In this document: positions 5,894 through 32,086 of the stretch, one piece after another
Layout of the letters: every line of letters begins with the position of its first letter
How positions within the stretch are numbered: the stretch's first letter is position 1
Origin: an uncultured Steroidobacteraceae bacterium
GTDB lineage: Bacteria > Pseudomonadota > Gammaproteobacteria > Steroidobacterales > Steroidobacteraceae
DNA length: 34,861 nt
Reading direction: 5' to 3'
Assembly (NCBI GenBank): GCA_964597495.1
Contig: CAZQYC010000039.1
Span: forward strand, 1 to 34,861
The notes under the pieces: generated by a model
What the model was told of the DNA's origin: nothing
Databases searched by the model: none
What the model saw: the letters and a program-made list of their open reading frames with translations, nothing else
Program-made: the position numbers and the translations under genes

Positions 5894-5981
5894 GCAATAT
5901 AGTACATATCACATAACTGAGAACACCGAGAAAAATGTGTGAAAGGATAGGGAAAAATCTAAGAGTAGCAATATAGTTCAT
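5894..5981. promoter_or_regulatory. Two copies of a GCAATATAGTNCAT direct repeat (5894-5907 and 5968-5981) in the divergent promoter region. They are candidate operator sites.
   Basis: The 14-bp repeat with 13/14 identity was seen directly. It lies between the ligase start and the regulator RBS (AGGAGG at 5999-6004). Confidence 0.3.
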
Positions 5982-6016
5982 TGAGTGAGTGTAATAGCAG
6001 GAGGTATAAAACCCAT

Positions 6017-9867: not shown

Positions 9868-10725
9868 TTGATGACGTCGATGTCAACACAATTGATGGTG
9901 ATAACGGTGAAAGTACTAAAAGCAAATAAATTGAATGTCTTTCTGTTGGCGCTCGTCGTGGCGGTAGTGGCCGGCTGTTCACCATCCGCCAAGCAACTCA
10001 AGGAGGCGTTGGAATCCAATCCAGACATTCTGACCAACGCGATCGAGAAGAACCAAGTGGTGATCATGGACGCGTTGCAGAAGGCGGCTCAGGACGCTCA
10101 ACGTGCGTCCCGCGATCGAATGCTTAAAGAACAGCAAGCTCTTCGCGAAGATGAATTCAAAAACCCAAAAATTCCCGCACTCGCTGATGATCGGGCGTCC
10201 CGCGGGCCGAAAGAAGCCCCCATTGTATTGGTTGAGTACGCCGACTTTCAGTGTCCGTACTGCCGGCAGGGATATGACACCGTTCGAGAAGTGGAAAAGA
10301 AATACGGCGGCAGCGTGAGGTTCGTTTACAAACATCTTCCGTTGGACTTCCATCCGTTAGCGATGCCGGCGGCAAAGCGTTTTGAAGCCATTGCGTTGCA
10401 GAGCGAAGACAAAGCCATGAAGTTTCATGACGAAGTCTTTTCGAACCAAGATGAGTTAGCGCAGAAAAAAGAAGAATTCTTGGACGACGTTGCGGGAAAA
10501 GTCGGTGCTGACGTTGCCAGAATGAGGAAAGACATGGAAAGCCCTGCGGTTCAGAAGCGCATTAAGGAAGACATGGAAGAGGCCAAGAAATTTGGCTTTC
10601 AGGGAACGCCAAGCTTCTTAGTGTCGGGGATTTCTTTCAGAGGGGTTCGTCCTTTTCAGGAATTTGAAGAAATCATCGAGCGTGTTCTGAAAGAACATGG
10701 AGAAAAACAGAGTAAGAGACAGTGA
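9868..10725 (+). CDS. DsbA-family thiol:disulfide oxidoreductase lipoprotein
   Basis: CPYC active site (ADFQCPYCRQG) and a lipobox VVAGC after a hydrophobic leader. The true start may be an internal Met near 9895. Confidence 0.7.
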   Translation: MMTSMSTQLMVITVKVLKANKLNVFLLALVVAVVAGCSPSAKQLKEALESNPDILTNAIEKNQVVIMDALQKAAQDAQRASRDRMLKEQQALREDEFKNPKIPALADDRASRGPKEAPIVLVEYADFQCPYCRQGYDTVREVEKKYGGSVRFVYKHLPLDFHPLAMPAAKRFEAIALQSEDKAMKFHDEVFSNQDELAQKKEEFLDDVAGKVGADVARMRKDMESPAVQKRIKEDMEEAKKFGFQGTPSFLVSGISFRGVRPFQEFEEIIERVLKEHGEKQSKRQ

Positions 10726-10759
10726 GCAGCATCCAAAAAATTTGGAGGAGATAGATTCC

Positions 10760-13700
10760 ATGAATAGACTAAAATTTAAAATGACGATCGGCCTCTGTTT
10801 AACTGTCTTGAGTGGCATGTGTAGTAACGTTCTGGCGCAAACGGTCGTAACGCTTTCCTCGATCGGGGACACGTACACGCAGCAAGGCACGCCGACTACC
10901 AACTATGGCACGCAGACGACGACGCTCGTTCGTATCGACACAGCCAACTCGTTGACGCGCGGCGCGTACTACGAATTCGACCTCTCGAGCTTGCCGGCGG
11001 GAACGATTGCTTCGGCGAAACTGAGACTGTTCGGCTCACACGATACCGGTGGCACCGGCGTGACCATTAACGCGTTTGGCGGCACGGCGACGACCGCGTG
11101 GAGCGAAACAGCGTTGGTGTACAACAATGCCTTGACGTTATCGGCAACAGATTTCTCGGGCACGCCGATTGCGTCGGTGGCTGTCGCGCCTCCGCCTTCC
11201 ACGACGTACGAGTGGGATGTCACTACCTATATCAGCGGGCGCCGGAGCGCGGGCGTCAACCTGGCCACCTTTGGTTTGGGAGCGGCAGCTGCGAACACTT
11301 ATCGCGCGACGTTCAATTCCAAGGAAGCCGCATCCAATAAGCCACAGCTGGTCGTGACGGTCAATGCGCCGGGAACCTACAATCTCTCCTCGATTGGGGA
11401 TACATACACGCAGCAAGGCACGCCAACTACAAATTATGGCACGCAGACGACGACGCTCGTCCGTATCGACACCGCCAATTCATTGACGCGCGGCGCATAC
11501 TACGAATTCGATTTGTCGAGCTTGCCAGTAGGGACGATTACTTCGGCAAAATTGAAGTTGTTCGGCTCTCATGACACCGGCGGCACCGGCGTGACCATCA
11601 ACGCATTTGGTGGTACTGCGACAACCGCATGGAGCGAAACGGCGCTGGTCTACAACAATGCCTTGACGTTGTCGGCAACAGATTTCTCGGGCACGCCGAT
11701 TGCGTCAGTAGCCGTCGCACCTCCGCCTTCTACGACATACGAATGGGACGTCACTTCCTACGTCAGTGCACGTCGTAGCGCGGGCTCCAACCTGGCTACC
11801 TTTGGTTTGGGAGCGGCAGCAGCGAATACCTATCGCGCGACGTTCAATTCCAAGGAAGCGACCTCCAACAAGCCGGTGCTCTCGGTGACGGTCGGCGGCG
11901 CACCGCCGCCGCCGCCGAGCTGGACACCGACTTGTCCCAGCGGCTACGTGCCAACGCCCGGTGAGAACATTAATTTCCCGACACCTTCCGGCAATCGGTC
12001 GTTCTCGTTGAACCTACCCAGCAGCACGTCCACGCCGCGACCGGTATGGGTGCCGCTCACGGGCTCGGTGGAATCGACGACTGAAAACTTGGATGCGCGC
12101 GGTGGCAATCGTCTGCTAACAAATTACGGTTACATCGTGATCGGACCGGTGCGGAAGTGCGCTGGCAGTGGTGCCGGCAGCGTGAGCGCGGCAGGCACCA
12201 GCGTGAACGGCGGTACCTGCAATCAAGCCGGCACCGGCGGTTGGACTTGGAATCCCTGGAACGAAGGTCGTACCTTTGATGCAGCGGGCGATCCATGGAA
12301 AACTGATGAAGGTCCGGATTCGCAGTTCCTGGAATCGGTGGTGAAATGCGTGGCCACACAGTATCCCGTAGATCAGACTCGGGTGTTCATTGGCGGCATT
12401 TCGTCCGGCGGCACGATGACGAATCGCGCGTTGGCGTTCAACTCGGATTTTTGGGCCGGCGGCATGCCGATCTCCGGTGAATGGTACGTGACGCAGGACA
12501 ATGGCACGGCCTATACTGGGTCAGATGAGTTCTTAGCGCGTCGTGCTGCTGTAGCCGCTGATCCATATCGGATTTACCAAGGTCGTGTAGGTCCGTATCC
12601 GCTCAAGAGTACGTTGGCCGATACGACGTCGCTGTCGCCAATGATCGTGATCACGGTGTGGGGAGGCACTGACGACATATGGTATTGCGGCACCACGTTG
12701 TGCGCCGACTACCGCCCTACCACTCAAGTGGCCTCAAACTACTTCAGCTCGTTTAGCAACGTGTTGCACATTGCGTGTTCGAGCACGCATGGGCATCAAT
12801 GGCCGACCGTCAATCGCGATGCGTTCAATCAGTGGGCGCTGGCTACCTTGTCGTCGCATCCGAAAGGCACGCCAAAGGCCAGCTTCGGCAATAAGCTCAT
12901 CACCAATCCGCCACCGTTAGGTTATAGCTGCGTGCTGGGACCGTTTGCCGATCACTATACGGGTGCACCGCCGCCCTCGGCGGGATCGATGAACTGGGGT
13001 ATGTTCGGTCACGACTATAACAACAGTCGTAGCTCGCCGGACACCACGATCAGCGCTAGCAACGCCAGTTCGCTGCATGTGCTTTCACGCGTTACCGGCG
13101 GCGGCATTACCAGCACGCCGACGATCGTGGACGACGTGGCGTACGTGTCTGACTTCCGCGGCCATGTGAAGGCGATTCGGATTACGGATAACGTGACTCT
13201 GTGGGACGTGATGCCGTCCACCTCGATCACTATGCTGTCACCGTCGCCGTACGTGACGGGTGACACGGTGTACGTCGGTGGTGATCTCGGTTGGGTGTTT
13301 GCGCTCAATCGCGCCACCGGTGCAGTAAGATGGTCGCGACAAATCGAGACCACGCCGAACGCGCGCGTGTCTTCGTCGCCGATCGTGGTGGGCAACATTC
13401 TGATCGTCGGTTCCGGTTCGTACCAAGTGTTCGTGCCGGCAACGCCGATGTTCCGCGGCAAAGTGGCGTTCTTAGATGCAAGTACCGGCGTGCCCTTGAG
13501 CTACATCACCGACGTGTGCCCCACGGGCACGTGCGGTGGCGGTATCTCGGTGTGGTCGACGGCGGCGATCGATTCGCAGACGCGCACGGGCTACATCGGC
13601 GCGGGTCAGGCTTACGCGGCGCCGGCAGGTCCGTATTCGGACGCGCTGATCGCATTCAACCTCGACACGGGTGCGATCCGCTGGAGCTATCAATTCACGC

Positions 13701-14332
13701 CGAACGATGTTTACACCATTAATACCGGCACGCTCGATCATGATGTCGGCGCGGCGCCTAACTTGTTCACTGCGGTGGTTGGCGGCGTGACGCGTCAGTT
13801 GGTCGGCGTCGGCGATAAGGGCGGACGCTATGCGGCGTTCGATCGTGCGACCGGCGCGCAAGTCTGGATGACCACCATCGGCAACGCGAGCCCGATCGGC
13901 GGCATGATGCACTCGGCGGCCTACGACAATGGAGGCATCTTCGTCGTCAACAACAGCGCCACCGTCGGCAGCAGTCGCAATGATCCGGTTCCGTCATCAG
14001 GCGTCGCTCGTCGCCTGAATGCGGCGACAGGGGCAATCGAATGGAGCCTCGACTTGCCGGCCGGCGGTTTCGGAGGCGTCAGCATCGCCAATGGTTTGAT
14101 GTACTTCACTACTTGGGATGGAGTTCTGCGGGTACTTAACGCCAGCACGGGTGCTGTCGTGAAAACTGTGCAGATAGGTCCTGCAGTGGGTGCCTACGTT
14201 CCTGCGCCTACCGACGGGTTCCCGAACGGATCGGCCAGCGGTCCGATTGTGTATAACGGCAAAGTCTACGTGGGCTATGGCTGGACGTGGGTGCTCAATA
14301 TCGACGGCGGGTTAGCCGCCATCGGACTCTGA
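10760..14332 (+). CDS. Large secreted multidomain protein: two tandem ~177-aa beta-rich repeat domains, a Pro-rich linker, a PHB-depolymerase-family esterase module, and a C-terminal PQQ-like beta-propeller
   Basis: RBS GGAGGAG precedes ATG 10760 and a signal peptide (MNRLKFKMTIGLCLTVLSGMCSNVLAQ). A PPPPP linker separates the N-terminal repeats from the rest. Esterase motif RVFIGGISSGGTM. Multiple PQQ-type repeats, for example VYVGGDLGWVFALNRATGAVRW. Confidence 0.65.
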   Translation: MNRLKFKMTIGLCLTVLSGMCSNVLAQTVVTLSSIGDTYTQQGTPTTNYGTQTTTLVRIDTANSLTRGAYYEFDLSSLPAGTIASAKLRLFGSHDTGGTGVTINAFGGTATTAWSETALVYNNALTLSATDFSGTPIASVAVAPPPSTTYEWDVTTYISGRRSAGVNLATFGLGAAAANTYRATFNSKEAASNKPQLVVTVNAPGTYNLSSIGDTYTQQGTPTTNYGTQTTTLVRIDTANSLTRGAYYEFDLSSLPVGTITSAKLKLFGSHDTGGTGVTINAFGGTATTAWSETALVYNNALTLSATDFSGTPIASVAVAPPPSTTYEWDVTSYVSARRSAGSNLATFGLGAAAANTYRATFNSKEATSNKPVLSVTVGGAPPPPPSWTPTCPSGYVPTPGENINFPTPSGNRSFSLNLPSSTSTPRPVWVPLTGSVESTTENLDARGGNRLLTNYGYIVIGPVRKCAGSGAGSVSAAGTSVNGGTCNQAGTGGWTWNPWNEGRTFDAAGDPWKTDEGPDSQFLESVVKCVATQYPVDQTRVFIGGISSGGTMTNRALAFNSDFWAGGMPISGEWYVTQDNGTAYTGSDEFLARRAAVAADPYRIYQGRVGPYPLKSTLADTTSLSPMIVITVWGGTDDIWYCGTTLCADYRPTTQVASNYFSSFSNVLHIACSSTHGHQWPTVNRDAFNQWALATLSSHPKGTPKASFGNKLITNPPPLGYSCVLGPFADHYTGAPPPSAGSMNWGMFGHDYNNSRSSPDTTISASNASSLHVLSRVTGGGITSTPTIVDDVAYVSDFRGHVKAIRITDNVTLWDVMPSTSITMLSPSPYVTGDTVYVGGDLGWVFALNRATGAVRWSRQIETTPNARVSSSPIVVGNILIVGSGSYQVFVPATPMFRGKVAFLDASTGVPLSYITDVCPTGTCGGGISVWSTAAIDSQTRTGYIGAGQAYAAPAGPYSDALIAFNLDTGAIRWSYQFTPNDVYTINTGTLDHDVGAAPNLFTAVVGGVTRQLVGVGDKGGRYAAFDRATGAQVWMTTIGNASPIGGMMHSAAYDNGGIFVVNNSATVGSSRNDPVPSSGVARRLNAATGAIEWSLDLPAGGFGGVSIANGLMYFTTWDGVLRVLNASTGAVVKTVQIGPAVGAYVPAPTDGFPNGSASGPIVYNGKVYVGYGWTWVLNIDGGLAAIGL
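10856..11917 (+). repeat. Intragenic tandem duplication, 2 x 531 bp at ~93% identity, encoding two copies of a 177-aa domain
   Basis: Unit 1 begins at 10856 and unit 2 at 11387 (TCCTCGAT(C/T)GGGGA(C/T)AC(G/A)TACACGCAGCAAGGCACGCC). Period 531 bp. Confidence 0.85.
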
Positions 14333-14759: not shown

Positions 14760-15091
14760 CTAGTTGAATTGCTGATTTCGAATTGCTTCAATGGCAATAT
14801 TATTTGTAATATTTAGTAAACGAGAATAATGCACTGAGCAGTGCAGTCTGACCTCGATCGAGGGCACGGGCGGAACGTACACGCAGTCGTTCAGGTACGC
14901 CAATGCAAACGTGAACATGGAAGGCCGCGGTAACTTGGGAGTCTGGGGGGCTCAGGTACCGGTGAGAACATTCCAACATTCGGCCCGATGAGAAGCGGTC
15001 GCGCATTCGTATGAATGTTCAACTGCTCTCATCGCCACCGGGAAATCTCCTCTTAATCTACTCAAGGCCTTTGGGTTCTAGGAGAAAAGCC

Positions 15092-15505
15092 ATGCAAACA
15101 AGATTCTCGAAAATCGGCGCCGACGGTGCAGTGCTTCCATCCGACGCTACCGAATGGGAAGCCGTACTCGACAGCAAAACCGGTCTCATGTGGTCGGTCG
15201 AGATAAAGAAGGTCGCCAACTGGAAAAAGGCCACCGCGACTGTGAAGAAGATTAAGGCCGCGGGCTTCGGCGATTGGCGCATGCCATCCGTCGAGGAGCT
15301 CTTCTTGCTCGCCGATCACACTCGCGTGGACCCAGCGATCGATATGGATTACTTCCCTAACACGCCAAGCGATTGGTTTTGGTCGAGCACGCCTTGGGCT
15401 CGTTCGCCTGACGATTGTGCGTGGCTTGTCTACTTCCTCGTCGGTTACGCGGGCTGGAACTACCAGTACTTCAGCGGTTTCGTTCGTGCCGTGCGTGTCG
15501 GTTAG
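15092..15505 (+). CDS. DUF1566 (Lcl C-terminal domain) protein
   Basis: GFGDWRMPSVEELFLL matches the DUF1566 hallmark. The RBS fits the internal ATG at 15092 (ORF track 15011). Confidence 0.55.
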   Translation: MQTRFSKIGADGAVLPSDATEWEAVLDSKTGLMWSVEIKKVANWKKATATVKKIKAAGFGDWRMPSVEELFLLADHTRVDPAIDMDYFPNTPSDWFWSSTPWARSPDDCAWLVYFLVGYAGWNYQYFSGFVRAVRVG

Positions 15506-15652: not shown

Positions 15653-17041
15653 ATGCCCCAGCATCCAAGCGAATCCTTACTTCGACACTTGCAGGCGGGC
15701 GTTGCTTCATCCGTTGAGCTTGAAACCGTGCTTGGGCAGTCCCAATCCACTGTATCGCGCTACTTACGTCAGCTAACGGCAGCGGGTTTGATCATTCGCC
15801 TCGGCAACACTCGGGGTGCGCGCTATGGGTTGCTCAGACCGATCGAAGGCATCGGTGCAAAGTGGCCGCTTCGCCGCATCGATTCTGCTGGCCAACTTCA
15901 TCTACTAGGCACGCTCTGTTCGTTGTATGCCGAACAATTTTATTTCGAGCCAGAGTCTGATGGGTTTGCGTACGATGGAGTTACCCACGGATTACCGTAC
16001 TATCTCCAGGATCAGCGGCCAGCCGGATTTCTTGGGCGCGCCGTTCCGCGTCAGTATCCAGAACTTCAATTGCCGCAACGCGTAGTCGATTGGAACGAAG
16101 ATCACTACCTACGCTATCTCACCCAGCGTGGCTCGGACACGGTCGGCGACCTCATCCTAGGCGATCAGGCGTTCGATCAGTTCCTGATCATGCAAAGGCA
16201 GCGAACGATCGCGAGCGTCAAGGATCGCGAGATCCGATACCCGCAGTTTGTGGCTGAAGTCATGGAGGGTGGTTTGCCGGGATCTTCCGCGCATGGTGAG
16301 CATCCGAAATTCACGGCGTTAATTGAGAGTCCATCGGGGCCAATGCATGTGCTCGTGAAGTTCTCACCGCCTGACCGTACCGCGGTCGGACAGCGATGGT
16401 CAGATCTGCTGATCGCCGAACACATTGCACATGAAGTGCTCGCGGCGGCGGGTCTGCCCGCGACACGCTCGCGCATCGAACGCTATGGTGACCGCACCTA
16501 TCTCGAAGTGGAGCGTTTCGATCGCGCGGGACTCGAAGGGCGAGTAGGGGTCACGTCACTGTTCGCGATTGATGCCGAACAATACGGCAAGCTCGACAAT
16601 TGGGTCGACTCTGCGACGCGGCTTCGTGACGACCGCCGAATTGATCCGACGACCTGCGAGCTTGTTCGCCTGATATCGACCTTCGGCGCACTGATTGCAA
16701 ACACGGACCGGCACTTCGGCAACCTAGCGTTTTACGATGCCTATGATGGTCGTTACTCGTTAGCACCGGTATACGACATGCTGCCCATGCTTTTTGCGCC
16801 AGAACACGATCAGGTGATTGCACGCGTCTTTCAACCACCCGATCCAACCTCACAGACACTGCGAGCATACGGGCGCGCGCGCGCGCTTGCAGAGGAATAC
16901 TGGCGCCGATGCGCCCATGATTCTCGAATCAGCGAGGAGTTTCAAGCTATCTGTGAGAAGTGTGGCGAGACACTCGAGAAGTTGCCTCGCACGGGTGCCT
17001 ATGCCTATCACGAAACTGAGCCGTTTCCGAAGACACAGTAG
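15653..17041 (+). CDS. HipA-family Ser/Thr kinase toxin homologue with a fused N-terminal winged-HTH (YjjJ/HipH-like architecture)
   Basis: The N-terminus LETVLGQSQSTVSRYLRQLTAAGLIIRLGNTRGARYGL is a winged HTH. The C-terminus carries the HipA catalytic signature IANTDRHFGNLAF. An AT-rich upstream region has repeated CTAG and TTTGTTTTTAT motifs (15520-15640). Confidence 0.7.
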   Translation: MPQHPSESLLRHLQAGVASSVELETVLGQSQSTVSRYLRQLTAAGLIIRLGNTRGARYGLLRPIEGIGAKWPLRRIDSAGQLHLLGTLCSLYAEQFYFEPESDGFAYDGVTHGLPYYLQDQRPAGFLGRAVPRQYPELQLPQRVVDWNEDHYLRYLTQRGSDTVGDLILGDQAFDQFLIMQRQRTIASVKDREIRYPQFVAEVMEGGLPGSSAHGEHPKFTALIESPSGPMHVLVKFSPPDRTAVGQRWSDLLIAEHIAHEVLAAAGLPATRSRIERYGDRTYLEVERFDRAGLEGRVGVTSLFAIDAEQYGKLDNWVDSATRLRDDRRIDPTTCELVRLISTFGALIANTDRHFGNLAFYDAYDGRYSLAPVYDMLPMLFAPEHDQVIARVFQPPDPTSQTLRAYGRARALAEEYWRRCAHDSRISEEFQAICEKCGETLEKLPRTGAYAYHETEPFPKTQ

Positions 17042-17253
17042 TGCGAATAACATGCGACGTTTCAAGTCGTCCGACGTGCTATCAGATCAGTTCGTCATCC
17101 GGCGTGGAAAATACGCCTTCGCTAGTGTGATGTATTTGTGCCATATCAGCGGCAGGCGGAGAGATTTCCGCCTGCCTTTCATGTTGCCATACACGAGTTA
17201 TATAGCGGCGCCGTTTGTTCGAAGAGTGAATTCCAAAAGGCGAACTCGTCGCA

Positions 17254-17568
17254 GTGGACTGGTCGAACGAGAGCGGAAGTGCTACTGGCATGTCCTTTAT
17301 GAAGGACATGCCGTTCAAAACTCCTGAACAGCTAGGCTCGGCCCTTCGCATTCGACGAATGGAACGCGCGATGTCGCAGGTCGAGTTGGCCGAAAGATTG
17401 GGAGTGGAGCGCAAATGGATTATGAAGGTCGAAGCCGGGAATCCGAAGGCCGAGTTCGGCTTTATTTTGAAGACCTTTGCGGAGCTCCGCCTGGAAGGCA
17501 AAATTACTATTCGGGATGCGAGCAGATCGGTAAGCGTCTGGTCATCACTGCGGCGGGTTCGACCGTGA
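17254..17568 (+). CDS. XRE/y4mF-family HTH regulator (HipB-like partner). The 3' end reads into an IS66-family remnant.
   Basis: RIRRMERAMSQVELAERLGVERKWIMKVEAGNPKAEFGFILKTFAELRL matches the y4mF-type HTH that pairs with HipA-like kinases. The likely start is an internal Met (MKDMPF, ~17302). The native C-terminus is probably near ELRLEGK. The downstream sequence overlaps the tnpA-like frame. Confidence 0.55.
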   Translation: MDWSNESGSATGMSFMKDMPFKTPEQLGSALRIRRMERAMSQVELAERLGVERKWIMKVEAGNPKAEFGFILKTFAELRLEGKITIRDASRSVSVWSSLRRVRP

Positions 17569-17678
17569 GAGCGGTTGCCGCGCGGCATGGATTGCGCCCC
17601 AATCACTTGTCGGCGTGGCGCAGTGATCCGAAGAATCGAGCATCGCCCTCGGGGGGTGGGACGCTTTGCGGCGATTGA
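17529..17678 (+). pseudogene. IS66-family accessory gene (tnpA-like) fragment
   Basis: GKRLVITAAGSTVRAVAARHGLRPNHLSAWRSD resembles the conserved IS66 TnpA core (EEKxRIVAE...VARRHGL..QLFxWRR). There is no start codon or inverted repeat. The fragment is interrupted by the IS3-family insertion at 17705. Confidence 0.4.
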
Positions 17679-17758
17679 AGTGCTGAGCGGATCGATGGAA
17701 GAAGTGGCCCCACCAATTTGAACAACGGAATGCAGTTCGTTAAGTGTGGCCCCGCGGG

Positions 17759-18586
17759 TTAAGCGGCTCTGGCGAGCAGCTGTGAATCAAAGTACACGGC
17801 ATCGGGTGTGCATCGGTCAAGTGCTTTGTGGGGACGACGCGTGTTGTAGAAGGTGAAGTAGCGAGCCAGATGCACGCGGGCGTCGCTGACGGTGTTGTAG
17901 GCACGTAGATACACCTCCTCATACTTCACCGACTTCCACAAGCGCTCGACGAACACGTTGTCGCGCCAACGACCCTTGCCGTCCATGCTAATGCGAATGC
18001 CGTGAGCCTTGAGGACCGAAGTGAACTCAAGGCTCGTGAACTGGCAACCCTGGTCGGTGTTAAAGATTTCGGGTGTGCTGTACGTCGCTAGCGCCTCGTC
18101 CAACGCTTCGACACAAAAATCGGTGGTGAGCGTATTGGAGAGCCGCCAGGCGAGTACCTTTCGCGTGAACCAGTCGATCACGGCGACCAAGTACACAAAG
18201 CCGCGCGCCATCGGGATATAGGTGATATCGGCGGCCCAGACTTGGTTGGGTCGATCGATCTGAAGCTTCCGCAGCAGGTACGGATAAACGACATGATCGG
18301 GGTGCGGTCGGCTGGTGTTCTTCTTGCGATAAATCGCCTCGATGCCCATCCGTTTCATCAGTGTGGCCACGTGCTTACGGCCCACTGCATGACCCTCCGT
18401 ATTCAGTAAATCGCGCAGCATGCGGCTGCCGGCAAAGGGATAGTCCAAATGCAACTCGTCAATCCGGCGCATCAATTCCAAATCACGTTCCGGCAACGGC
18501 TTGGGTTCGTAGTAAATCGCACCGCGCGATAAACCCACCAATACCGCCTGCCGCACCAACGGCAGACGATGTCCACGATCAATCAT
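17759..18586 (-). CDS. IS3-family transposase OrfB (DDE integrase core), expressed as an OrfAB fusion by -1 frameshifting
   Basis: An rve-type catalytic core (ADITYIP...TDQGCQFTS...). Its frame stays open upstream through the slippery site. Confidence 0.8.
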   Translation of the reverse strand: MIDRGHRLPLVRQAVLVGLSRGAIYYEPKPLPERDLELMRRIDELHLDYPFAGSRMLRDLLNTEGHAVGRKHVATLMKRMGIEAIYRKKNTSRPHPDHVVYPYLLRKLQIDRPNQVWAADITYIPMARGFVYLVAVIDWFTRKVLAWRLSNTLTTDFCVEALDEALATYSTPEIFNTDQGCQFTSLEFTSVLKAHGIRISMDGKGRWRDNVFVERLWKSVKYEEVYLRAYNTVSDARVHLARYFTFYNTRRPHKALDRCTPDAVYFDSQLLARAA

Positions 18587-18885
18587 CGCTTTGCGCTCGG
18601 ATCGCCGATGCGACCGAGCGCGCCTGATAAAAAATCAATCTCCAATGCCTGCTGGCCGATCTTCGCATGAAGTTCTTTGATGTCCGGCTGTAAGGCTTTC
18701 GCACCTTCACCGCCAAACGCTTCCGCTGCTCCTTCCAGCAGTTGCGTCTTCCACTGCGTCACTTGCGTTGGATGGACATCAAAGCGTTCGGCAATCTCAA
18801 TCACTGTCTGTTGCCCTTTGATCGCTTCCAGGGCCACTTTGGCTTTGAACGTCGCTGAATGGTTACGTCTCGATCTCTTACTCAT
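18583..18885 (-). CDS. IS3-family transposase OrfA (HTH)
   Basis: MSKRSRRNHSATFKAKVALEAIKGQQTVIEIAERFDVHPTQVTQWK is typical of IS3 OrfA. Confidence 0.8.
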   Translation of the reverse strand: MSKRSRRNHSATFKAKVALEAIKGQQTVIEIAERFDVHPTQVTQWKTQLLEGAAEAFGGEGAKALQPDIKELHAKIGQQALEIDFLSGALGRIGDPSAKR

Positions 18886-19067
18886 TGCTGCTCCGAATAG
18901 AAGGCGATATCTTCGCCCACAAGAGCAGAGCCGTCACTTATCGTACTGTTCGATAGGTTGGGACCACCTCAGGACGGCGTGATCGAGACCGATCTGTTGA
19001 ATTCGTGCATTCGGATTCGCGGCGAAGTGTCGGGTTCGATGGTACGTGAGGTGGGGGGACTGATGCG

Positions 19068-19403
19068 ATGATGGGTTTTCCCGGTGGCAGTCGGATTTGG
19101 TTAGCGTGTGTGATAACGCGTCCGAAGTCGTTCACAGATCGCCCCATTGTCCGGCAGAAGGTTATCGAAATAGTGGCGCACGGCCGAGGAGGTGATCGTG
19201 GTGTTGGCTGTAATAGTAATTTCCAGATTCGAAGCGCCATACTAATGCATAAGAAAACATGCGTTTTGAATGGGCGTCCCTGGAATGTATTCGTGATAAA
19301 GACGGTACGGGCATATGCTAGATATGAGTGGGCCATAGACCGGGTGTTTACTGGTTGGTGTGACGAAATTGGTAAGGATCTAAGAGATGGGAGTCGAACC
19401 TGA
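19068..19403 (+). pseudogene. Degenerate IS66-family tnpB-like fragment
   Basis: FPGGSRIWLACVITRPKSF resembles the IS66 TnpB N-terminus (LPxGxRIWLAxGxTDMRKGF). The rest has decayed. Together with the 17529 fragment it defines an IS66 remnant split by the IS3 element. Confidence 0.4.
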
Positions 19404-20127
19404 TCCAGTAGCTTTTGAGGAGTTTAAGAAAAAGCAGACGGCAGCGTTTTCCAGGATCGCCTATCGGACGAGAGGAACGCATGGAGCTGACGATCTCATG
19501 TCGGAGGCGTGGCTAATCGCTCTCGAAATCGGTAAACGCAGAGGCTGTCAAATGGATGTCTCCAACTATGTGGAGCAGAATCTGATTCTTGCGTGGCTGT
19601 ACAAGAGGTTTGTCGACTTCGTTGACGGCAAGAATAGAGAAAGTATCGACGACGATGTCTCAGACGGTTTTACTCCTTTGCGTGATCGATTAGCGGCGCC
19701 GGAAGAATCGAATCCGTTGCATGCGTTATTGCTAGTCGACGAAGAGCGTCTCACGTCCCCGGCCAGGAAGGGATTTTCGCAATATTCGGCATACATGATT
19801 CTCCTTGAGCGATGTGAGCTGAGCCTCCTTACGCTTGCCGAATACCTTGCCATATCGTTCTCGACACTTCGAACGCGTATTCAAAGTTCTAATGAGCACG
19901 CTGACTGTCAACCTTCGCTTTTTGACGAGGTGGAGCGAATAGACTCCAATTTTCTCCCCCGATCCCAATGGCTGCGCACTCTCTGGCAACGGTGGCAAGC
20001 CAAATCAGCCATTACGGTCGCATGGACTAATATTCGGAAGCTCATCAGTCGAGAAAATAACGATGTTTCTTCAGCAACCATCATGGATCTCTTCGGCTGC
20101 AATGCGAATTCCGCGCAGAGATTGTGA
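19387..20127 (+). CDS. Hypothetical protein with weak sigma-70/ECF-like region 2 and region 4 similarity
   Basis: DDLMSEAWLIAL...ILAWLYKRFVDF is region-2-like. The C-terminal LSLLTLAEYLAISFSTLRTRI is an HTH (region-4-like). The gene is AT-richer than its surroundings. Confidence 0.3.
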   Translation: MGVEPDPVAFEEFKKKQTAAFSRIAYRTRGTHGADDLMSEAWLIALEIGKRRGCQMDVSNYVEQNLILAWLYKRFVDFVDGKNRESIDDDVSDGFTPLRDRLAAPEESNPLHALLLVDEERLTSPARKGFSQYSAYMILLERCELSLLTLAEYLAISFSTLRTRIQSSNEHADCQPSLFDEVERIDSNFLPRSQWLRTLWQRWQAKSAITVAWTNIRKLISRENNDVSSATIMDLFGCNANSAQRL

Positions 20128-20273
20128 CCAACTCAAATTGAGTATGCTGTAATTGTGCCGTGAATAGGCTGCTCTCGAAGTGGAAAGCACCACAAGTAGC
20201 TGATTTATAAAGATCATAGTGCCCAAGTCGTCCTTCGAACAAGAGTGGAGTTCGAATCTCTTCGGCGCGGCCA
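20125..20273 (+). repeat. Copy A of a ~150-bp imperfect direct repeat. It ends in a tRNA-like T-arm (GGAGTTCGAATCTCT) plus an acceptor 3' strand and CCA, and it lies upstream of jetA.
   Basis: About 80% identical to copy B at 28800-28955, including the conserved core CTGATTTATAAAGATC. No complementary 5' acceptor strand was found, so it is not an intact tRNA. Confidence 0.6.
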
Positions 20274-20563
20274 ATTTCTCAAATGGAGTTCTGGATCGAT
20301 AGCTCAATGCACACACGTAGCATGTACATGCCAAAATAATGTACATCAGTAAGTATTAAATCCGTGTATCTCACTAGCTCAACCATCCTCTGTTCGCGTG
20401 CCTCGTTCAGTGGTTCGCATAAACAGGAGCAAGGATGCTAGAGAAGCAGTCAAGTATCGGAGAGAATCAATGATTGTTAGCCGGTTTTCCAACTATAAGA
20501 TTTCAGACCTACTTTATCGAGCAACCTAGTTGGTTACCTGCGAACGCATAGCTGAACCTAAGC

Positions 20564-22114
20564 ATGGATCACACAAGAATCCAACCCAACGTCGTTGACT
20601 CTGCGGATTTGCTCCGCCATATCACGGCAGACAAAGCGCCGCTCTACCGTAGCATCATGGATGTATTCGCGGCGGCTAAGCGGCAATACCGGCTGCAACT
20701 TCGGCCCGATGAAGTGGCTAGCGAAGCCACCTGGCCAGGGGACACACCCCGCATTGAAGAGATCAATGCCATGCTCACGCAGCTGTCGCAATGGGGCAAC
20801 CTGGAGTCACAGCCAGACACAACACGTGTTTCGACACTCAGCGATTTCTATCGAGCGAGATATCTGTATCGGTTGTCCCATGGCGGTGAAGCGGTCGAAG
20901 CCGGCCTCGCCGTGCTATTGCAGACGTTGCGTCGTCGCGCCGAACTGCAGACCGTTGCGCTCGAGGACATCGCTGGCCGCTTGCTTGCGCTCAAGCAACT
21001 CATCGAAGCCGATACCGATGGCAAGGGGCCCGATGTAGCAAAGTCGCACGAAACTCTGCGCGACCTCGTACGCGTATTTGAGGACCTCGCCGAAAACGCG
21101 CAATCCTTCATGGCCAGTGTTGCTCGCAGCCTGGAACTCCAGCAAGCGGACGCGAACACAATCGTCAACTACAAGCGCCGCCTGATCGACTATCTGGAGC
21201 GATTCATCGGCGACCTGGTCCGCCGATCCGACAGCATCGCTCGATTGATCCAGTATCTGACGAGCTATGTCGATGGAATTTTTTTGCAGATCGCGGAGCG
21301 CGAAGCCAGGGATGCTGCGCCCGGCGATGCGAGCGATCAGCAGGATCAGAAGATCGAACGATGGAGTGTTTGGACAGAACGTTGGAAAGGGCTGCGCGGG
21401 TGGTTTCTTTCCACTGGTGCAGAGCCGCCTCAAGCGGAGCTGCTGAGAGCGCGGGCCCGAGCAGCAATTCCGCTGCTGCTTGGCGCGATAGCGACGTTGA
21501 ACGAGCGTCGCAGCGGTCGCAGCGATCGCTCGGCGGATTTCCGCGTTCTGGCGCAGTGGTTCGCCGCCTGTGGCACCGATGGAGAGGCGCATCGTATGGC
21601 GCGTGCTGCGTTCGCACTCCAACCAGCTCGGCATTTCTCGCTCAATCCGCATGCAGATGGCGATCTTCCCGCCAGCACACCGTGGGCTGAAGCACCGCCG
21701 CTGCAAATAAATCCTCGACTACGCGAGTATGGTGAGGCAGCACCTCGTGGTCCGTTACCACGCGTCAGGGATAGGAGCGCGGAACGTGAATTGATGGCGC
21801 AGCAATTAGCTGAAGAGTCTCGGCAAGTGCAAGCCGCGCGGCAGCGCCTTGCAACGGGGCGTCCAGCTCGTTTGTCAGAAATCGGCGAACTCGACAAGCA
21901 TGCATTTCAACTCTTTCTGGGCTTGTTAGGCGAAGCGCTTTCGGACCAGCTCAATCCCGATCAGCCGGTGGAGCTGCAAACGGGTGACGGACTCCTTCGA
22001 GTACGTCTGGAACCCTTGCCCGCTGAGAGCCGAGCCACCATTGAAACGCCCGCCGGCACGTTCTCGGGAAGAGATCACCTGCTGACCATCACCGAGATCC
22101 ACGCAACCGAATGA
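20564..22114 (+). CDS. jetA: Wadjet JetA (MksF/kleisin-like, DUF3375-type)
   Basis: First gene of a four-gene operon with the size pattern 516/411/1387/421 aa and ATGA-overlapped junctions. Identified mainly by operon context with JetC and JetD. Confidence 0.55.
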   Translation: MDHTRIQPNVVDSADLLRHITADKAPLYRSIMDVFAAAKRQYRLQLRPDEVASEATWPGDTPRIEEINAMLTQLSQWGNLESQPDTTRVSTLSDFYRARYLYRLSHGGEAVEAGLAVLLQTLRRRAELQTVALEDIAGRLLALKQLIEADTDGKGPDVAKSHETLRDLVRVFEDLAENAQSFMASVARSLELQQADANTIVNYKRRLIDYLERFIGDLVRRSDSIARLIQYLTSYVDGIFLQIAEREARDAAPGDASDQQDQKIERWSVWTERWKGLRGWFLSTGAEPPQAELLRARARAAIPLLLGAIATLNERRSGRSDRSADFRVLAQWFAACGTDGEAHRMARAAFALQPARHFSLNPHADGDLPASTPWAEAPPLQINPRLREYGEAAPRGPLPRVRDRSAERELMAQQLAEESRQVQAARQRLATGRPARLSEIGELDKHAFQLFLGLLGEALSDQLNPDQPVELQTGDGLLRVRLEPLPAESRATIETPAGTFSGRDHLLTITEIHATE

Positions 22115-23346
22115 GCACCCGGCGATCACTGCAGGACAGCCGACGGATCGGCGATCTCCAAAAGTCCATGCAACAGGATGAATTCCGTAAGGCGTTGCGC
22201 GCATTGCTGATGACGCCGCTGATGTCACCCGAGCATGAAGATTTTGCAGCAGTGCGCCGGCAGGCCGAGCGGGTGCGCGATTGGTTCGCACGCGAGACCG
22301 GCTGGCCCTTATACATCGATCGTGAAGGTGCGCGCTTGTTCAAGCGACCCGCCGACTTGACGGACGATACCCGCGGCCTGCCTGAATACAATCGCTATCG
22401 CTATGTGCTGCTTTGCCTGTGCTGCGCCGTGCTTGAACGCGCCGATCCTCAGATCACGTTGAGGGTGCTCGGTGAACGTGTGATGCAGCTGGCGGCTGAT
22501 CCTACGCTCGCCGCATACGGATACGAATTTACTTTCGGGACGGCTGTCGAACGGCGTGCTCTCGTAGCTGTGTGCAAGACGCTGCTGGAACAAGGAGTGT
22601 TGCAGCGAGTGGCGGGTGACGAGGAAAATTTCGTGCACGAGAGCGGGTGGACGCAGTCGGACGCGCTCTACGATGTGCAACGGCGATTATTGGCTGGCAT
22701 GCTCGCCGCCATTCGCGGACCCTCGACTTGGCGCGCTGAAGAAGCACCGGCAGATTTCGAATCTCGCTTGCGATCTCTGATTGCCGAACATATCACAGAC
22801 AGCGATCAGGGTCGTCGCGACGCCCTGCGCCACTATCTTGCGCGCCGCCTATTGGACGATCCCGTACTTTATACCTCTTCACTGAGCGAGGAAGCTCAAG
22901 CGTACTTCATCAATCAGCGCGGTCCGATGGCAAGCCGGCTCAGCGATGCGCTAGGACTCATCGCCGAGCAGCGCGCCGAGGGTTTGGCGCTCACCGACGA
23001 AGCGGGGCAACTCACTGATGTGACTATGCCGGCCGAAGGGACGGAGGCGCACGCCACATTGCTCGTCGCGGAATTTCTCGCGCAACGTTTGCGCTCGAGT
23101 TCATTGCCTACGGTAACGACAATGGACGCGATTGCGGGTCACTTGCGTAACGCAAGCGCGCAGTACGGCAAATACTGGCGCAAATCCGCACGCGCACCCG
23201 GTGCGGAGAAAGAGCTTGCCGGTATCGCCGTCGACAGGCTTCGCAAGTTGCGACTGGTTGCGCTCGAACAGAATCGCATCACACCGTTGCCCGCCATTGC
23301 GCGCTTCGCGGTGGGACAAACCGATATCCGTGCCACAGATTCATGA
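22111..23346 (+). CDS. jetB: Wadjet JetB (MksE-like, DUF4194-type)
   Basis: Start ATG overlaps the jetA stop (ATGA at 22111-22114). Position and size fit JetB. Confidence 0.55.
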   Translation: MSTRRSLQDSRRIGDLQKSMQQDEFRKALRALLMTPLMSPEHEDFAAVRRQAERVRDWFARETGWPLYIDREGARLFKRPADLTDDTRGLPEYNRYRYVLLCLCCAVLERADPQITLRVLGERVMQLAADPTLAAYGYEFTFGTAVERRALVAVCKTLLEQGVLQRVAGDEENFVHESGWTQSDALYDVQRRLLAGMLAAIRGPSTWRAEEAPADFESRLRSLIAEHITDSDQGRRDALRHYLARRLLDDPVLYTSSLSEEAQAYFINQRGPMASRLSDALGLIAEQRAEGLALTDEAGQLTDVTMPAEGTEAHATLLVAEFLAQRLRSSSLPTVTTMDAIAGHLRNASAQYGKYWRKSARAPGAEKELAGIAVDRLRKLRLVALEQNRITPLPAIARFAVGQTDIRATDS

Positions 23347-30775: not shown

Positions 30776-30852
30776 TGGTCGCATTGGAGGGAATCGAACC
30801 CTCGACCTAGCAGTTGTTGGCTGCCTGCTCTATCCCACTGAGCTACATTGCG
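30776..30852 (-). tRNA. tRNA-like gene with the non-canonical anticodon loop CCAACAA (apparent anticodon AAC, C33), 77 nt including CCA
   Basis: Good cloverleaf: D-arm GCTCAGTGGGATAGAGC, T-arm GAGGGTTCGATTCCCTC, and an acceptor with 6 of 7 pairs. A34 and C33 are unusual, so it may be a pseudo-tRNA or an unusual tRNA. Confidence 0.4.
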
Positions 30853-31054
30853 TGGTGATTGAGGCACGACTCGCGCGGTACGCACAGCGACAGAGTCGCA
30901 GCGCGCCAGCGTGGCTTTGGAACCACGGCCGCTGACACGAAATCGCAAACCTCGATCTCGGTACCGATCGGCGCTCGTGCAATATGGACGAGCGCCGATC
31001 AGAATTCATAATCAAATTTGTACGCGGTGGGCGGAGCCTCTTCTCCGCCCACGT

Positions 31055-31627: not shown

Positions 31628-31671
31628 CGAACTTCTCCTCTAGGTTGATCAACAGCGCTTGCTGCTGGTGG

Positions 31672-31748
31672 GTGGTCGTGCAGGATGGATTTGAACCATC
31701 GATAACCGGCTTATGAGGCCGGCGCGTTAGGCCGCTTCGCCACTGCAC
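31672..31748 (-). tRNA. tRNA-Met/CAT (elongator or Ile-lysidine type)
   Basis: Anticodon arm CCGGC-CTCATAA-GCCGG, T-arm GATGGTTCAAATCCATC, acceptor CGTGCAG/CTGCACG, discriminator A and CCA encoded. The 1-72 pair is formed, so it is not initiator-like. Confidence 0.8.
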
Positions 31749-31878
31749 GCATTCAAAGCGGAGGATCGGACTCCATGTCACGACCACCGCGTGCCGAACG
31801 AAAAGCGCGGTTTTCATTCGGCACCGACCACGATGCGAAGACGCATCGTGGCGAGCGTACATCCATGTACGCGGATTT

Positions 31879-32081: not shown

Positions 32082-32086
32082 TGAAT

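What the first reader, a model, noticed from the sequence alone, without database searches (positions are those of the whole stretch)
15653..19403. HTH-fused HipA-like kinase followed, not preceded, by a y4mF-type HTH gene, with nested IS insertions at the junction
The kinase carries its own winged HTH, as in YjjJ/HipH. A separate y4mF-family HTH gene of the kind that normally precedes HipA lies 210 bp downstream. Its 3' end runs into an IS66-family remnant, which is itself split by a complete IS3-family element. The canonical order, HTH then kinase, would predict a second HipA-like gene downstream of the y4mF gene. That gene may have been destroyed by the insertions. If so, this locus originally held two HipA-type modules. 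If not, this is an unusual kinase-then-antitoxin arrangement.
Basis: partly seen in the sequence, partly recalled or inferred. Interest (0 to 1): 0.55.

Follow-up and report, generated by a model that had tools for sequence, protein, structure and literature searches.

The report
Intact HipH kinase beside decayed hipBA remnants
An intact stand-alone HipH (YjjJ-type) toxin kinase gene sits next to a scrapyard of broken pieces, namely a truncated hipB antitoxin gene, an insertion-sequence stub with a whole IS3 inside it and an inverted scrap of a hipA gene; this is ordinary decay of toxin-antitoxin modules, not a new kinase-then-antitoxin system.

Summary
15653-17041 encodes a full-length HipH/YjjJ kinase with an N-terminal winged HTH. 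A y4mF/HipB-type HTH gene follows it. That gene runs into an IS66-family tnpA remnant, which is split by an intact IS3-family element.

The HTH gene is not the kinase's partner.
- Its homology to relatives stops at 17524-17528 (about codon 79 of roughly 105-111). The conserved C-terminal motif and the upstream operator are missing.
- In 55 of 59 related loci, this HipB type is followed by a canonical hipA that overlaps it by 4 bp.
- None of about 85 HipH loci has a conserved neighbour. A strong terminator-like hairpin separates hipH from hipB'.
- The cognate hipA is gone.

A frameshifted hipA 5' fragment lies on the minus strand at 19314-19107. It resembles E. coli HipA, not the cognate partner of hipB', so at least two different hipBA modules probably decayed here.

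The IS66 stub lacks both ends, so deletions destroyed the modules, not simple insertions.

Verdict: this is an ordinary, monocistronic HipH plus toxin-antitoxin and IS debris at the edge of an ORF246/Wadjet type II island. Interest is low. Residual possibility: the HipB' stub still acts on HipH in trans.

The parts
15653..17041 (+). hipH (yjjJ-type) gene. It is intact and encodes 462 aa: an N-terminal winged HTH (about residues 9-58) followed by a HipA-like Ser/Thr kinase core. The core motifs are the Gly-rich loop GLPGSSAHGEHPKF (206-220), VLVKF (K236), the catalytic NTDRHFGN (350-357) and the Mg-binding PVYDMLP (372-378).
   Evidence: NCBIfam NF007297: 449 bits against a cutoff of 401. Pfam HipA_C and HTH_5. 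The motifs are invariant in a 21-sequence alignment. 36% full-length identity to E. coli K-12 HipH, E=3e-78, with the motifs aligned.
17151..17176 (+). Terminator-like hairpin downstream of hipH. The stem has 11 bp (8 G-C pairs) with a 4-nt loop, followed by TTTCATGTTG. It separates hipH from hipB'.
   Evidence: Terminator scan. The RNA fold of 17140-17195 gives -25.4 kcal/mol.
17290..17528 (+). hipB', the 5' ~71% (codons 1-79) of a y4mF/HipB-type antitoxin gene. The HTH is intact, but the conserved C-terminal motif (SRLDxVFxRLxRR) is missing. The open frame runs on to 17568 through IS66 DNA. Of the two ATGTCC-N8-GGACAT operator palindromes seen in relatives, only the one overlapping the start codon (17290-17309) is kept.
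   Evidence: Protein alignment A1. DNA homology to L008/L009/L010 ends at 17524-17528. Operator search. Four unique substitutions at positions that are otherwise invariant.
17529..17699 (+). Left part of the IS66-family tnpA remnant. It starts at about codon 25 of tnpA, with no left inverted repeat and no start codon, and contains an internal frameshift.
   Evidence: NCBIfam IS66 TnpA: E=1e-4 and 5e-6, model positions 19-69. tblastn match to a Gemmobacter tnpA that lies upstream of an annotated IS66 tnpB.
17700..18971 (-). Complete IS3-family element (ISKpn11/IS407-like) inserted in the IS66 tnpA. orfA is 18885-18583 and orfB is 18586-17759. The -1 slippery site T TTT TTA lies at 18634-18628. 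The terminal inverted repeats are imperfect. The flanking 3-bp direct repeat GGA lies at 17697-17699 and 18972-18974.
   Evidence: Pfam rve and HTH_Tnp_1. NCBIfam transpos_IS3: 268 bits against a cutoff of 160. Inverted repeats and direct repeat. 375-aa OrfAB fusion. Similar IS3 elements on plasmids.
18975..19106 (+). Right part of the IS66 remnant: the tnpA C-terminus (stop codon at 19069-19071) and at most a ~13-codon stub that could be the start of tnpB. That stub is unsupported. There is no tnpC and no right inverted repeat.
   Evidence: After the IS3 is removed, tnpA reads continuously across the junction, and one alignment to the Gemmobacter TnpA spans it. The tnpB stub is not supported.
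19107..19314 (-). hipA', a 5' pseudogene fragment (about 70 codons of the HipA N-terminal Couple_hipA domain) in inverted orientation. Its ATG is at 19314, and there is a 1-nt frameshift near 19224. The best-conserved core is 19205-19107 (SSAVRHYFDNLLPDNGAICERLRTRYHTR). It is E. coli-HipA-like and not the cognate of hipB'.
   Evidence: HipA profile: E=0.014. E. coli HipA against the six-frame window: phmmer E=2.3e-6, tblastn 48% over 29 aa. In the PDB only HipA chains are hit, E=1.8e-4, residues 22-81. Pfam Couple_hipA: E=4.5e-4, 21.1 bits against a gathering cutoff of 22.5. tblastn against plasmids finds 1193 records, and the matches with annotation under them are all HipA family toxin.
19387..20127 (+). 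ORF246, shown for context. It is a conserved gene of unknown function that marks the left edge of the Wadjet type II island (jetA2-D2, 20564-28768). Homology to relatives starts exactly at its start codon.
   Evidence: Homologues at 50-57% identity. They lie next to Wadjet II in L091/L092 and L093/L094. PADLOC JetA2-D2.

Best explanation
The locus holds one working gene, and the 2.35 kb that follow it (17042-19386) are wreckage apart from one intact IS3.

hipH is an intact, monocistronic YjjJ/HipH-type Ser/Thr kinase gene. By analogy with E. coli HipH, its product arrests growth when active. It is presumably controlled in cis, through its own winged HTH and through autophosphorylation of the serines in the Gly-rich loop, and not by a neighbouring antitoxin. 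This step is inferred from the family.

Downstream of a terminator-like hairpin lies a patchwork:
(i) The first 79 codons of a hipB gene from a canonical hipBA operon. Its 3' end and its hipA have been deleted.
(ii) An IS66-family tnpA fragment lacking both ends, fused directly to hipB codon ~79.
(iii) An intact, probably still mobile IS3-family element that later inserted into that tnpA, leaving a 3-bp target duplication.
(iv) The first ~70 codons of a different, E. coli-type hipA gene. It is frameshifted, points towards the IS stub and is truncated at it.

The pieces are shown directly. The order of events is inferred. At least one, and probably two, canonical hipBA modules sat between hipH and the ORF246/Wadjet island and were eroded by deletions or rearrangements associated with IS66. 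The IS3 insertion came last. The adjacency of hipH and hipB' is a by-product of this decay, not a functional operon.
For: HipH identity and integrity.

hipB' is truncated.
- Relatives are 102-119 aa and share a conserved C-terminal motif that the window copy lacks.
- DNA homology stops at 17524-17528.
- The tail of the ORF is read from IS66 DNA.

Cognate partner of this HipB type.
- In 55 of 59 unique loci with enough downstream sequence, a canonical hipA starts 4 bp before the hipB stop.
- That HipA matches E. coli HipA at E=1e-45 but shares only 25% identity over 200 aa with the window HipH.

hipH has no conserved partner.
- The closest relatives (82%, 70% and 69% identity) have unrelated genes downstream.
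- None of 80 species-level loci has an adjacent HipB-like ORF.
- Pfam on 71 co-directional downstream ORFs shows no recurrent family.
- No neighbouring ORF family is shared by more than 5 of 82 loci.
- Only 1 of the 80 loci has a hipBA within 4 kb.
- E. coli hipH is flanked by deoD and lplA, and the literature describes the whole clade as monocistronic (PMC8262856).

Signs of decay in hipB'.
- The upstream operator palindrome present in relatives is missing.
- The window copy is the sole deviant at 4 of the 5 columns where a single sequence differs, although it nests among close relatives.

Hairpin between the genes.
Nested IS structure.
hipA' fragment and its non-cognate nature.
Against: - No closely related genome with an orthologous, IS-free locus was found. 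The nearest HipH is 82% identical and lies in a different context. The ancestral order is therefore inferred, not observed.
- The hipB' reading frame is still open (92 codons) and its HTH is intact, so expression and residual function cannot be excluded.
- E. coli HipB can rescue HipH toxicity in trans (PMC9948734).
- The hipA' evidence rests on about 60 alignable residues. Its Pfam score is just below the gathering cutoff (21.1 against 22.5 bits).
- The contig comes from a metagenome-type assembly, and the junctions could not be checked against reads.
Confidence: 0.85

Rival explanations
1. hipH and hipB' form a genuine reversed-order toxin-antitoxin pair (kinase first, HTH antitoxin second), like the hipAB subclades and the hipEB modules.
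For: - The genes are co-directional and adjacent.
- Reversed hipAB/hipEB orders exist in other Hip clades (PMC8262856).
- E. coli HipB rescues YjjJ toxicity (PMC9948734).
- The hipB' ORF is open and its HTH domain is intact.
Against: - The order is not conserved in any of about 85 HipH loci.
- The gap is 248 bp and contains a -25 kcal/mol terminator-like hairpin.
- hipB' is a truncated copy of a gene that is coupled to canonical hipA in 55 of 59 relatives.
- Its tail is IS66 DNA.
- Its upstream operator is lost, and it carries unique substitutions at invariant sites.
Confidence: 0.04
2. hipB' is a retained orphan: a truncated but still expressed HTH protein. It would be kept either as an anti-addiction factor or repressor against incoming hipBA modules, or as a trans-acting damper of HipH.
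For: - The 92-codon frame is open, and the HTH and one operator half-site pair (17290-17309) are intact.
- Antitoxin-only remnants also occur in other loci of this subfamily: L125, L143 and L153/L154.
- HipB-HipH cross-talk is documented in E. coli (PMC9948734).
Against: - The native upstream operator and promoter region is lost.
- The conserved C-terminal motif is lost.
- There is an excess of unique substitutions at conserved positions.
- The other solo-hipB loci look like decay products as well.
Confidence: 0.08
3. hipB' and hipA' are the two halves of one hipBA operon that was split and partly inverted by an IS66-mediated inversion.
For: - Both are 5' fragments of hipBA-type genes.
- They flank the same IS66 stub in convergent orientation (parts list).
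- IS elements can cause inversions and deletions (general knowledge).
Against: - hipB' is about 80% identical to HipB of L008/L009. Their HipA N-termini share only a 20-residue patch at 45% identity with hipA', whereas hipA' is 35% identical over 63 aa to E. coli HipA.
- Across 55 loci the partner HipA stays L009-like.
- The 72 bp upstream of hipA' show no hipB 3' end (translations, by inspection).
Confidence: 0.05
4. The patchwork is an assembly artefact, with chimeric joins at repeated IS sequence in a metagenome-assembled contig.
For: - The contig comes from an environmental assembly.
- IS elements are classic sites of misassembly (general knowledge).
Against: - The IS3 has matching inverted repeats and a target duplication, and its removal restores the tnpA frame exactly.
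- The hipB'/tnpA and tnpA/hipA' junctions lie in unique sequence, not repeated sequence.
Confidence: 0.03

Closest known systems
E. coli K-12 HipH (YjjJ), clade X of the Hip kinase tree (Gerdes et al. 2021, PMC8262856; Gratani et al. 2022, PMC9948734)
   Same: - Same architecture: an N-terminal HTH of about 100 aa followed by a HipA-like kinase core, with all four kinase motifs and two serines in the Gly-rich loop.
- 36% identity over the full length, and the score is above the NCBIfam equivalog cutoff.
- No conserved adjacent antitoxin.
   Different: - The host is different: the closest named relatives are Steroidobacteraceae.
- The gene lies in a variable, defence- and TA-rich region instead of between deoD and lplA.
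- A non-cognate hipB fragment happens to lie downstream.
Canonical hipBA of E. coli K-12 and its soil-metagenome relatives (L008-L010, L097-L156)
   Same: - hipB' belongs to a HipB subfamily with paired ATGTCC-N8-GGACAT palindromes at its start. They are shown only in L008-L010 and are read as operators by analogy with E. coli.
- That subfamily is followed by a translationally coupled Couple_hipA + HipA_C kinase.
- hipA' aligns to E. coli HipA residues 22-81.
   Different: - Neither gene is complete: hipB' lacks its last ~30 codons and hipA' keeps only ~70 codons.
- The two fragments are convergent, belong to different sub-lineages and are separated by IS debris.
- No kinase core of a second HipA exists anywhere in the window.
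Reversed-order Hip modules: hipEB (clade IX) and the hipAB subclades of clades VI/VII (PMC8262856)
   Same: The superficial gene order is the same: kinase first, then an HTH gene on the same strand.
   Different: - In those families the order is conserved and the HTH protein is full length.
- Here the order is unique to this contig.
- The kinase belongs to clade X (HipH), not to HipE.
- The HTH gene is a truncated fragment of a normal-order module.
Nested insertion sequences (an IS3-family element inside an IS66-family element)
   Same: - The IS3 shows its hallmarks: orfA/orfB with a -1 slippery site, a DDE rve domain, terminal inverted repeats and a 3-bp target duplication.
- The IS66 tnpA reading frame is restored when the IS3 is removed.
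   Different: - The IS66 host element is only a ~300-bp internal stub.
- It has no inverted repeats, no tnpC and no supported tnpB, so it records deletions and not a simple insertion.

Membership tests
HipH / YjjJ kinases (Hip clade X) | HipA-like kinase core with a Gly-rich loop, an ATP-binding Lys, the catalytic D-x-H-x-x-N motif and a Mg-binding Asp. | tested here: met
   Pfam HipA_C: E=1e-23. The motifs GSSAHGEHPKF, VLVKF, NTDRHFGN and PVYDMLP are invariant among 21 relatives and align with GSSAGGEQPKF, VLVKF, NSDMHAGN and PVYDMLP of E. coli HipH.
HipH / YjjJ kinases (Hip clade X) | An N-terminal HTH extension of about 100 aa in place of HipA N-subdomain 1. | tested here: met
   HTH_5, MarR_2 and HTH_20 hits at residues 9-58. 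The alignment to E. coli HipH starts at residue 13 of the window protein and residue 8 of E. coli HipH. No Couple_hipA hit.
HipH / YjjJ kinases (Hip clade X) | Scores as a YjjJ equivalog. | tested here: met
   NF007297: 449 bits against a cutoff of 401, over 434 of 446 model positions.
HipH / YjjJ kinases (Hip clade X) | Monocistronic, with no conserved adjacent antitoxin gene. | tested here: met
   Relatives have no shared neighbour. The window has a terminator-like hairpin after hipH. The neighbouring hipB' is a non-cognate fragment.
HipH / YjjJ kinases (Hip clade X) | Ser/Thr kinase activity and growth inhibition on overexpression. | not testable with these tools
   Known for E. coli YjjJ only (PMC9948734).
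HipB / Y4mF-type antitoxin | XRE-type HTH domain. | tested here: met
   Pfam HTH_31: 30.8 bits against a cutoff of 27. E. coli HipB aligns at E=3e-5 against the six-frame window.
HipB / Y4mF-type antitoxin | Reaches the TIGR03070 (Y4mF) cutoff. | tested here: not met
   44.4 bits against a cutoff of 71.65.
HipB / Y4mF-type antitoxin | Full-length protein with the subfamily's C-terminal motif SRLDxVFxRLxRR. | tested here: not met
   Homology ends at residue ~79, and the tail is IS66-derived.
HipB / Y4mF-type antitoxin | Immediately followed by, and overlapping, a hipA toxin gene. | tested here: not met
   True in 55 of 59 related loci. In the window the next sequence is IS66 tnpA, and no cognate hipA exists anywhere.
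Canonical HipA (Couple_hipA + HipA_C) | N-terminal Couple_hipA domain. | tested here: inconclusive
   The minus-strand fragment 19314-19107 scores 21.1 bits against a gathering cutoff of 22.5, E=4.5e-4. It matches only HipA chains in the PDB, E=1.8e-4. It is a partial, frameshifted domain.
Canonical HipA (Couple_hipA + HipA_C) | C-terminal kinase core. | tested here: not met
   Apart from hipH itself, nothing in the window gives a significant match to the kinase core: the next best HipA-profile hit is E=3.3, and tblastn finds none.
Reversed-order Hip TA module (hipAB / hipEB) | The kinase-then-HTH order is conserved among relatives of the kinase. | tested here: not met
   None of about 85 HipH loci shows it.
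IS3 family | orfA/orfB with a -1 frameshift, a DDE integrase core, terminal inverted repeats and a 3-4 bp target duplication. | tested here: met
   transpos_IS3 scores 268 bits against a cutoff of 160. The slippery site T TTT TTA gives a 375-aa OrfAB. The GGA repeat flanks the element.
IS66 family | tnpA-tnpB-tnpC gene set bounded by inverted repeats with an 8-bp target duplication. | tested here: not met
   Only an internal tnpA piece is recognisable (27 bits, below the cutoff of 74). There is no tnpB or tnpC and no inverted repeats. It is a remnant, not an element.

The most novel reading that the evidence does not exclude
The truncated HipB' (HTH intact, new 13-residue tail, one operator kept) has been co-opted as a trans-acting partner of the neighbouring HipH. 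That would turn a normally monocistronic HipH into a de novo two-gene toxin-antitoxin pair. It would also give a natural example of the HipB-HipH cross-talk so far seen only with overexpression in E. coli.
Probability: 0.05. Interest if true: 0.5.

Novelty: new member of a known kind. Interest (0 to 1): 0.18.

Why it matters
It matters mainly as a caution. A HipH kinase next to a y4mF-type HTH gene looks like a new gene order for the Hip family. Here it is an accident of decay: the HTH gene is a stump of an ordinary hipBA operon.

The locus adds one more environmental HipH that fits the monocistronic rule. It also shows hipBA modules eroding at the edge of a Wadjet-carrying island.

If the low-probability alternative were true and the stump regulates HipH, it would bear on the open question of how HipH activity is controlled.

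Tried and rejected
1. Search for the cognate hipA. Three searches of the whole window found nothing except the distant kinase core of hipH: tblastn with the HipA of L008/L009/L010, a 28-sequence HipA profile and nhmmer with the hipA DNA alignment.

2. The weak minus-strand hit at 19002-19172. I first dismissed it as spurious because it overlapped my provisional IS66 tnpB assignment. I revised this after the profile, E. coli HipA, PDB and Pfam searches all agreed. The tnpB assignment was dropped because no HMM or BLAST result supports it.

3. 'GTAAGCG' at 17530 as a possible IS66 left inverted repeat. Rejected, because tnpA homology runs right up to the junction at about codon 25.

4. Synteny with the closest HipH loci. 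None exists beyond the gene itself, so no IS-free orthologous locus could be recovered.

5. A conserved small partner of any kind next to HipH. A HipB HMM, Pfam on downstream ORFs and all-against-all clustering of flanking ORFs were all negative.

6. A hipB 3' end upstream of hipA' (19315-19386). Nothing was recognisable by inspection of the three frames.

7. Palindromes upstream of hipH as a possible autoregulatory site. Only AT-rich repeats appeared, with no motif shared across loci. Not pursued.

8. tRNA or Rfam features in 17000-20600 that might mark an attachment site. None were found.

Full report
**Observation.**
- ORF 15653-17041 (+, 462 aa) matches the NCBIfam YjjJ equivalog over its whole length: 449 bits against a cutoff of 401.
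- It has a Pfam HipA_C core at residues 211-438 and winged-HTH hits at residues 9-58. HTH_5 scores above its gathering cutoff.
- It is 36% identical, end to end, to E. coli K-12 HipH (E=3e-78). The Gly-rich loop with two serines, the VLVKF lysine, the catalytic NTDRHFGN and the PVYDMLP motif are all aligned. These residues are invariant in a 21-member alignment of relatives. The kinase is therefore an intact HipH.
- Downstream, an ORF with an XRE-type HTH (HTH_31, 30.8 bits) scores best against TIGR03070/Y4mF, though below that model's cutoff.
- An IS3-family element and IS66 tnpA-like sequence follow.

**The HTH gene is a truncated hipB.**
- Its ten homologues in the large protein database are 102-119 aa long. 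They share a conserved C-terminal motif, SRLDxVFxRLxRR, which the window copy lacks. The alignment breaks down after about residue 79.
- At the DNA level, homology to three related loci runs from 17289/17290 to 17524-17528 and stops there.
- The remaining 13 codons of the open frame are IS66 tnpA sequence read in another frame.
- Homologues start at MSFMKD, so the gene starts at ATG 17290, not GTG 17254.

**What normally follows this HipB.**
- In all four contexts retrieved by exact-protein look-up, hipB is followed by a 432-439-aa Couple_hipA + HipA_C gene that overlaps its stop codon by 4 bp.
- A metagenome scan added 60 loci. Taken together, 55 of 59 unique loci with enough downstream sequence have hipA starting 4 bp before the hipB stop.
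- The four exceptions (L125, L143, L153/L154) look like decayed modules themselves.
- This partner is a canonical HipA: E=1e-45 to E. coli HipA structures. It shares only 25% identity over 200 residues with the window HipH.
- No locus of this HipB subfamily has a HipH next to it.

**What normally surrounds HipH.**
- The three closest relatives (82%, 70% and 69% identity) have unrelated genes downstream, a redoxin-like gene and a DUF5990 gene, and different genes upstream.
- In 80 species-representative loci carrying HipH relatives (36-69% identity), a HipB profile found no adjacent HTH gene.
- Pfam scanning of 71 co-directional downstream ORFs showed no recurrent family.
- Clustering all flanking ORFs found no family shared by more than 5 of 82 loci, and those five are all Myxococcaceae.
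- Only one locus (L050) has a hipBA anywhere within 4 kb.
- E. coli hipH lies between deoD and lplA.
- This agrees with the published description of clade X as entirely monocistronic (PMC8262856).
- In the window, a strong terminator-like hairpin sits 110 nt after the hipH stop. It spans 17151-17176 with an 11-bp stem, and the surrounding 56 nt fold at -25.4 kcal/mol.

**Signs that hipB' is decaying.**
- Relatives carry two ATGTCC-N8-GGACAT palindromes 28 bp apart. The second overlaps the start codon. By analogy with the TATCC-N8-GGATA operators of E. coli hipBA, these are presumably HipB operators. That is an inference from my own knowledge of E. coli hipBA.
- The window keeps only the second palindrome (17290-17309). 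The upstream one and the surrounding promoter region are not recognisable.
- Within the 79 retained residues, the window protein is the sole deviant at four of the five columns where exactly one of the eleven sequences differs: I19L, L47V, L58F and L63F. This is despite its nesting inside the closest clade at 73-81% identity. The pattern suggests relaxed constraint. The sample is small, so this is only suggestive.

**The IS nest.**
- The IS3-family element spans 17700-18971 (1272 bp, minus strand). orfA encodes 100 aa and orfB 275 aa. Together they cover the NCBIfam IS3 transposase model.
- A T TTT TTA heptamer at 18634-18628 would give a 375-aa OrfAB by -1 slippage.
- The ends form imperfect inverted repeats, and GGA flanks both sides.
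- Deleting the element and one GGA restores a continuous IS66 tnpA C-terminus. A single tblastn alignment to a Gemmobacter tnpA, which directly precedes an annotated IS66 tnpB, spans the healed junction. The IS3 is therefore complete, and it inserted into pre-existing IS66 sequence.
- The IS66 piece is only an internal stub. It begins at about codon 25 of tnpA, abutting hipB codon ~79. It has an internal frameshift and ends a few codons after the tnpA stop.
- The 'GTAAGCG' at 17530 is coding sequence (G-K-R), not an inverted repeat.
- Because neither IS66 end is present, hipB was truncated by deletion or rearrangement, not by a simple insertion.

**A HipA-like fragment does exist, on the other strand.**
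- A profile built from 28 partner HipAs gave a borderline hit (E=0.014) at 19104-19241 on the minus strand.
- E. coli HipA finds the same place as its best match in the whole window: phmmer E=2.3e-6 against the six-frame pieces, and tblastn 48% over 29 residues, SSAVRHYFDNLLPDNGAICERLRTRYHTR against SDAVFNFFDNLLPDSPIVRDRIVKRYHAK.
- Joining the ORF that starts at ATG 19314 to this frame across a 1-nt shift near 19224 gives a ~70-residue peptide.
  - Against the whole PDB it hits only HipA chains: E=1.8e-4, HipA residues 22-81.
  - Pfam Couple_hipA scores E=4.5e-4, just under the gathering cutoff.
  - tblastn against plasmids finds 1193 records, and every listed match with annotation under it is a HipA family toxin.
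- Similarity ends at ~19107, where the IS66 stub ends.
- This hipA' is not the missing partner of hipB'. It is 35% identical over 63 residues to E. coli HipA, but shares only a 20-residue patch with the HipA of L009/L010. Their HipB is about 80% identical to hipB'.
- The two fragments are convergent. Each keeps its 5' end, and each is cut off at the IS66 stub. The simplest reading is that two different hipBA modules decayed here. A single module with shuffled partners cannot be strictly excluded.

**Context.**
- From 19387 onward the sequence belongs to a conserved ORF (246 aa, no family assignment) followed by a complete Wadjet type II system, JetA2-JetD2.
- Homologues of this ORF lie next to Wadjet II in other contigs. 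One has two integrases and AlpA (L091/L092). Another (L093/L094) has Phd/PIN and ParD genes and a fragmented hipA on the minus strand. Just upstream of the ORF in L093/L094 there is sequence that I read by eye as a frameshifted HipB-like HTH; the HipB profile does not hit it.
- The hipH-to-ORF246 interval is therefore the ragged edge of a TA-rich, probably mobile defence island.

**Mechanism.**
- Shown: an intact HipH gene with all catalytic motifs, a separate terminator-like hairpin, and non-functional fragments downstream.
[quoted passage not shown] In E. coli it phosphorylates RpmE and CsrA, among other targets (PMC9948734). It has no dedicated antitoxin. Its HTH and Gly-rich-loop serines are the proposed means of self-control (PMC8262856).
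- hipB' most likely does nothing for HipH.
- E. coli HipB can rescue YjjJ toxicity in trans (PMC9948734), and the HipB' HTH is intact. I therefore keep a small probability (about 5-8%) that the stump still acts as a regulator or antitoxin.

**Comparison and verdict.** The kinase is a new member of the known HipH family. The neighbouring pieces are ordinary pseudogene and IS debris. The kinase-then-HTH order is not a new Hip module architecture. Interest is low.

**Limits.**
- No IS-free orthologous locus was available.
- The junctions could not be checked against reads.
- The hipA' call rests on about 60 residues.

Noticed in passing
window 30776-34453 (minus strand): A dense array of 16 tRNA genes in 3.7 kb (ARAGORN). 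Rfam confirms 14 of them. Two have unusual predicted anticodon loops: 'gtaa' at 34031-34104 and 'cctt' at 34215-34314, the latter 100 nt long. tRNA arrays of this size are often linked to mobile elements.
   Followed up: no
window 19387-28768: A complete Wadjet type II system: JetA2 20564-22114, JetB2 22111-23346, JetC2 23343-27506 and JetD2 27356-28768. It is preceded by a conserved 246-aa ORF of unknown function. Homologues of that ORF accompany Wadjet II in at least two other island contexts (L091/L092 with integrases and AlpA; L093/L094). It may be an unrecognised accessory or regulatory gene of these islands.
   Followed up: partly
L008 2615-2662; L009 229-276; L010 1296-1343; window 17290-17309: This HipB subfamily carries two perfect ATGTCC-N8-GGACAT palindromes 28 bp apart. 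The second overlaps the hipB start codon, which explains the invariant M-K-D near the protein's N-terminus. They are presumably HipB operators. The window keeps only the second.
   Followed up: partly
L093/L094 880-3050 (minus strand): A hipA fragmented into several frames sits immediately upstream of the ORF246 homologue. Beside it is sequence that I read by eye as a frameshifted HipB-like HTH; the HipB profile does not hit it. This mirrors the position and orientation of hipA' in the window, although the HipA type differs.
   Followed up: partly
L125, L143, L153/L154: These are other members of the same HipB subfamily in which hipA is missing or reduced to a ~30-codon stub. In L125 the HipB itself is shortened. 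Toxin loss with antitoxin retention therefore recurs in this subfamily.
   Followed up: partly
L050 484-2097 and 3986-5356: This is the only HipH-family locus of 80 with a canonical hipB-hipA pair nearby, about 1.9 kb upstream on the same strand. It would be a useful comparison if HipH-HipBA cross-talk is studied.
   Followed up: no
window 5981-6940 (+): A fusion of an XRE-type HTH with a shikimate kinase domain (319 aa). The hipB' query gave a weak hit to the NCBIfam model for the anaerobic benzoate catabolism transcriptional regulator, which is annotated with this architecture; this ORF itself was scanned only against Pfam. It also gave a weak hit with the HipB profile.
   Followed up: no
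window 10697-14332 (+): A 1211-aa predicted secreted protein with an almost exact internal duplication of about 170 residues near its N-terminus (SSIGDTYTQQGTPTTNYGTQTTTLVRIDTANSLTRGAYYEFDLSSLP... occurs twice). It is followed by a small Lcl_C (DUF1566) gene at 15011-15505, just upstream of hipH.
   Followed up: no
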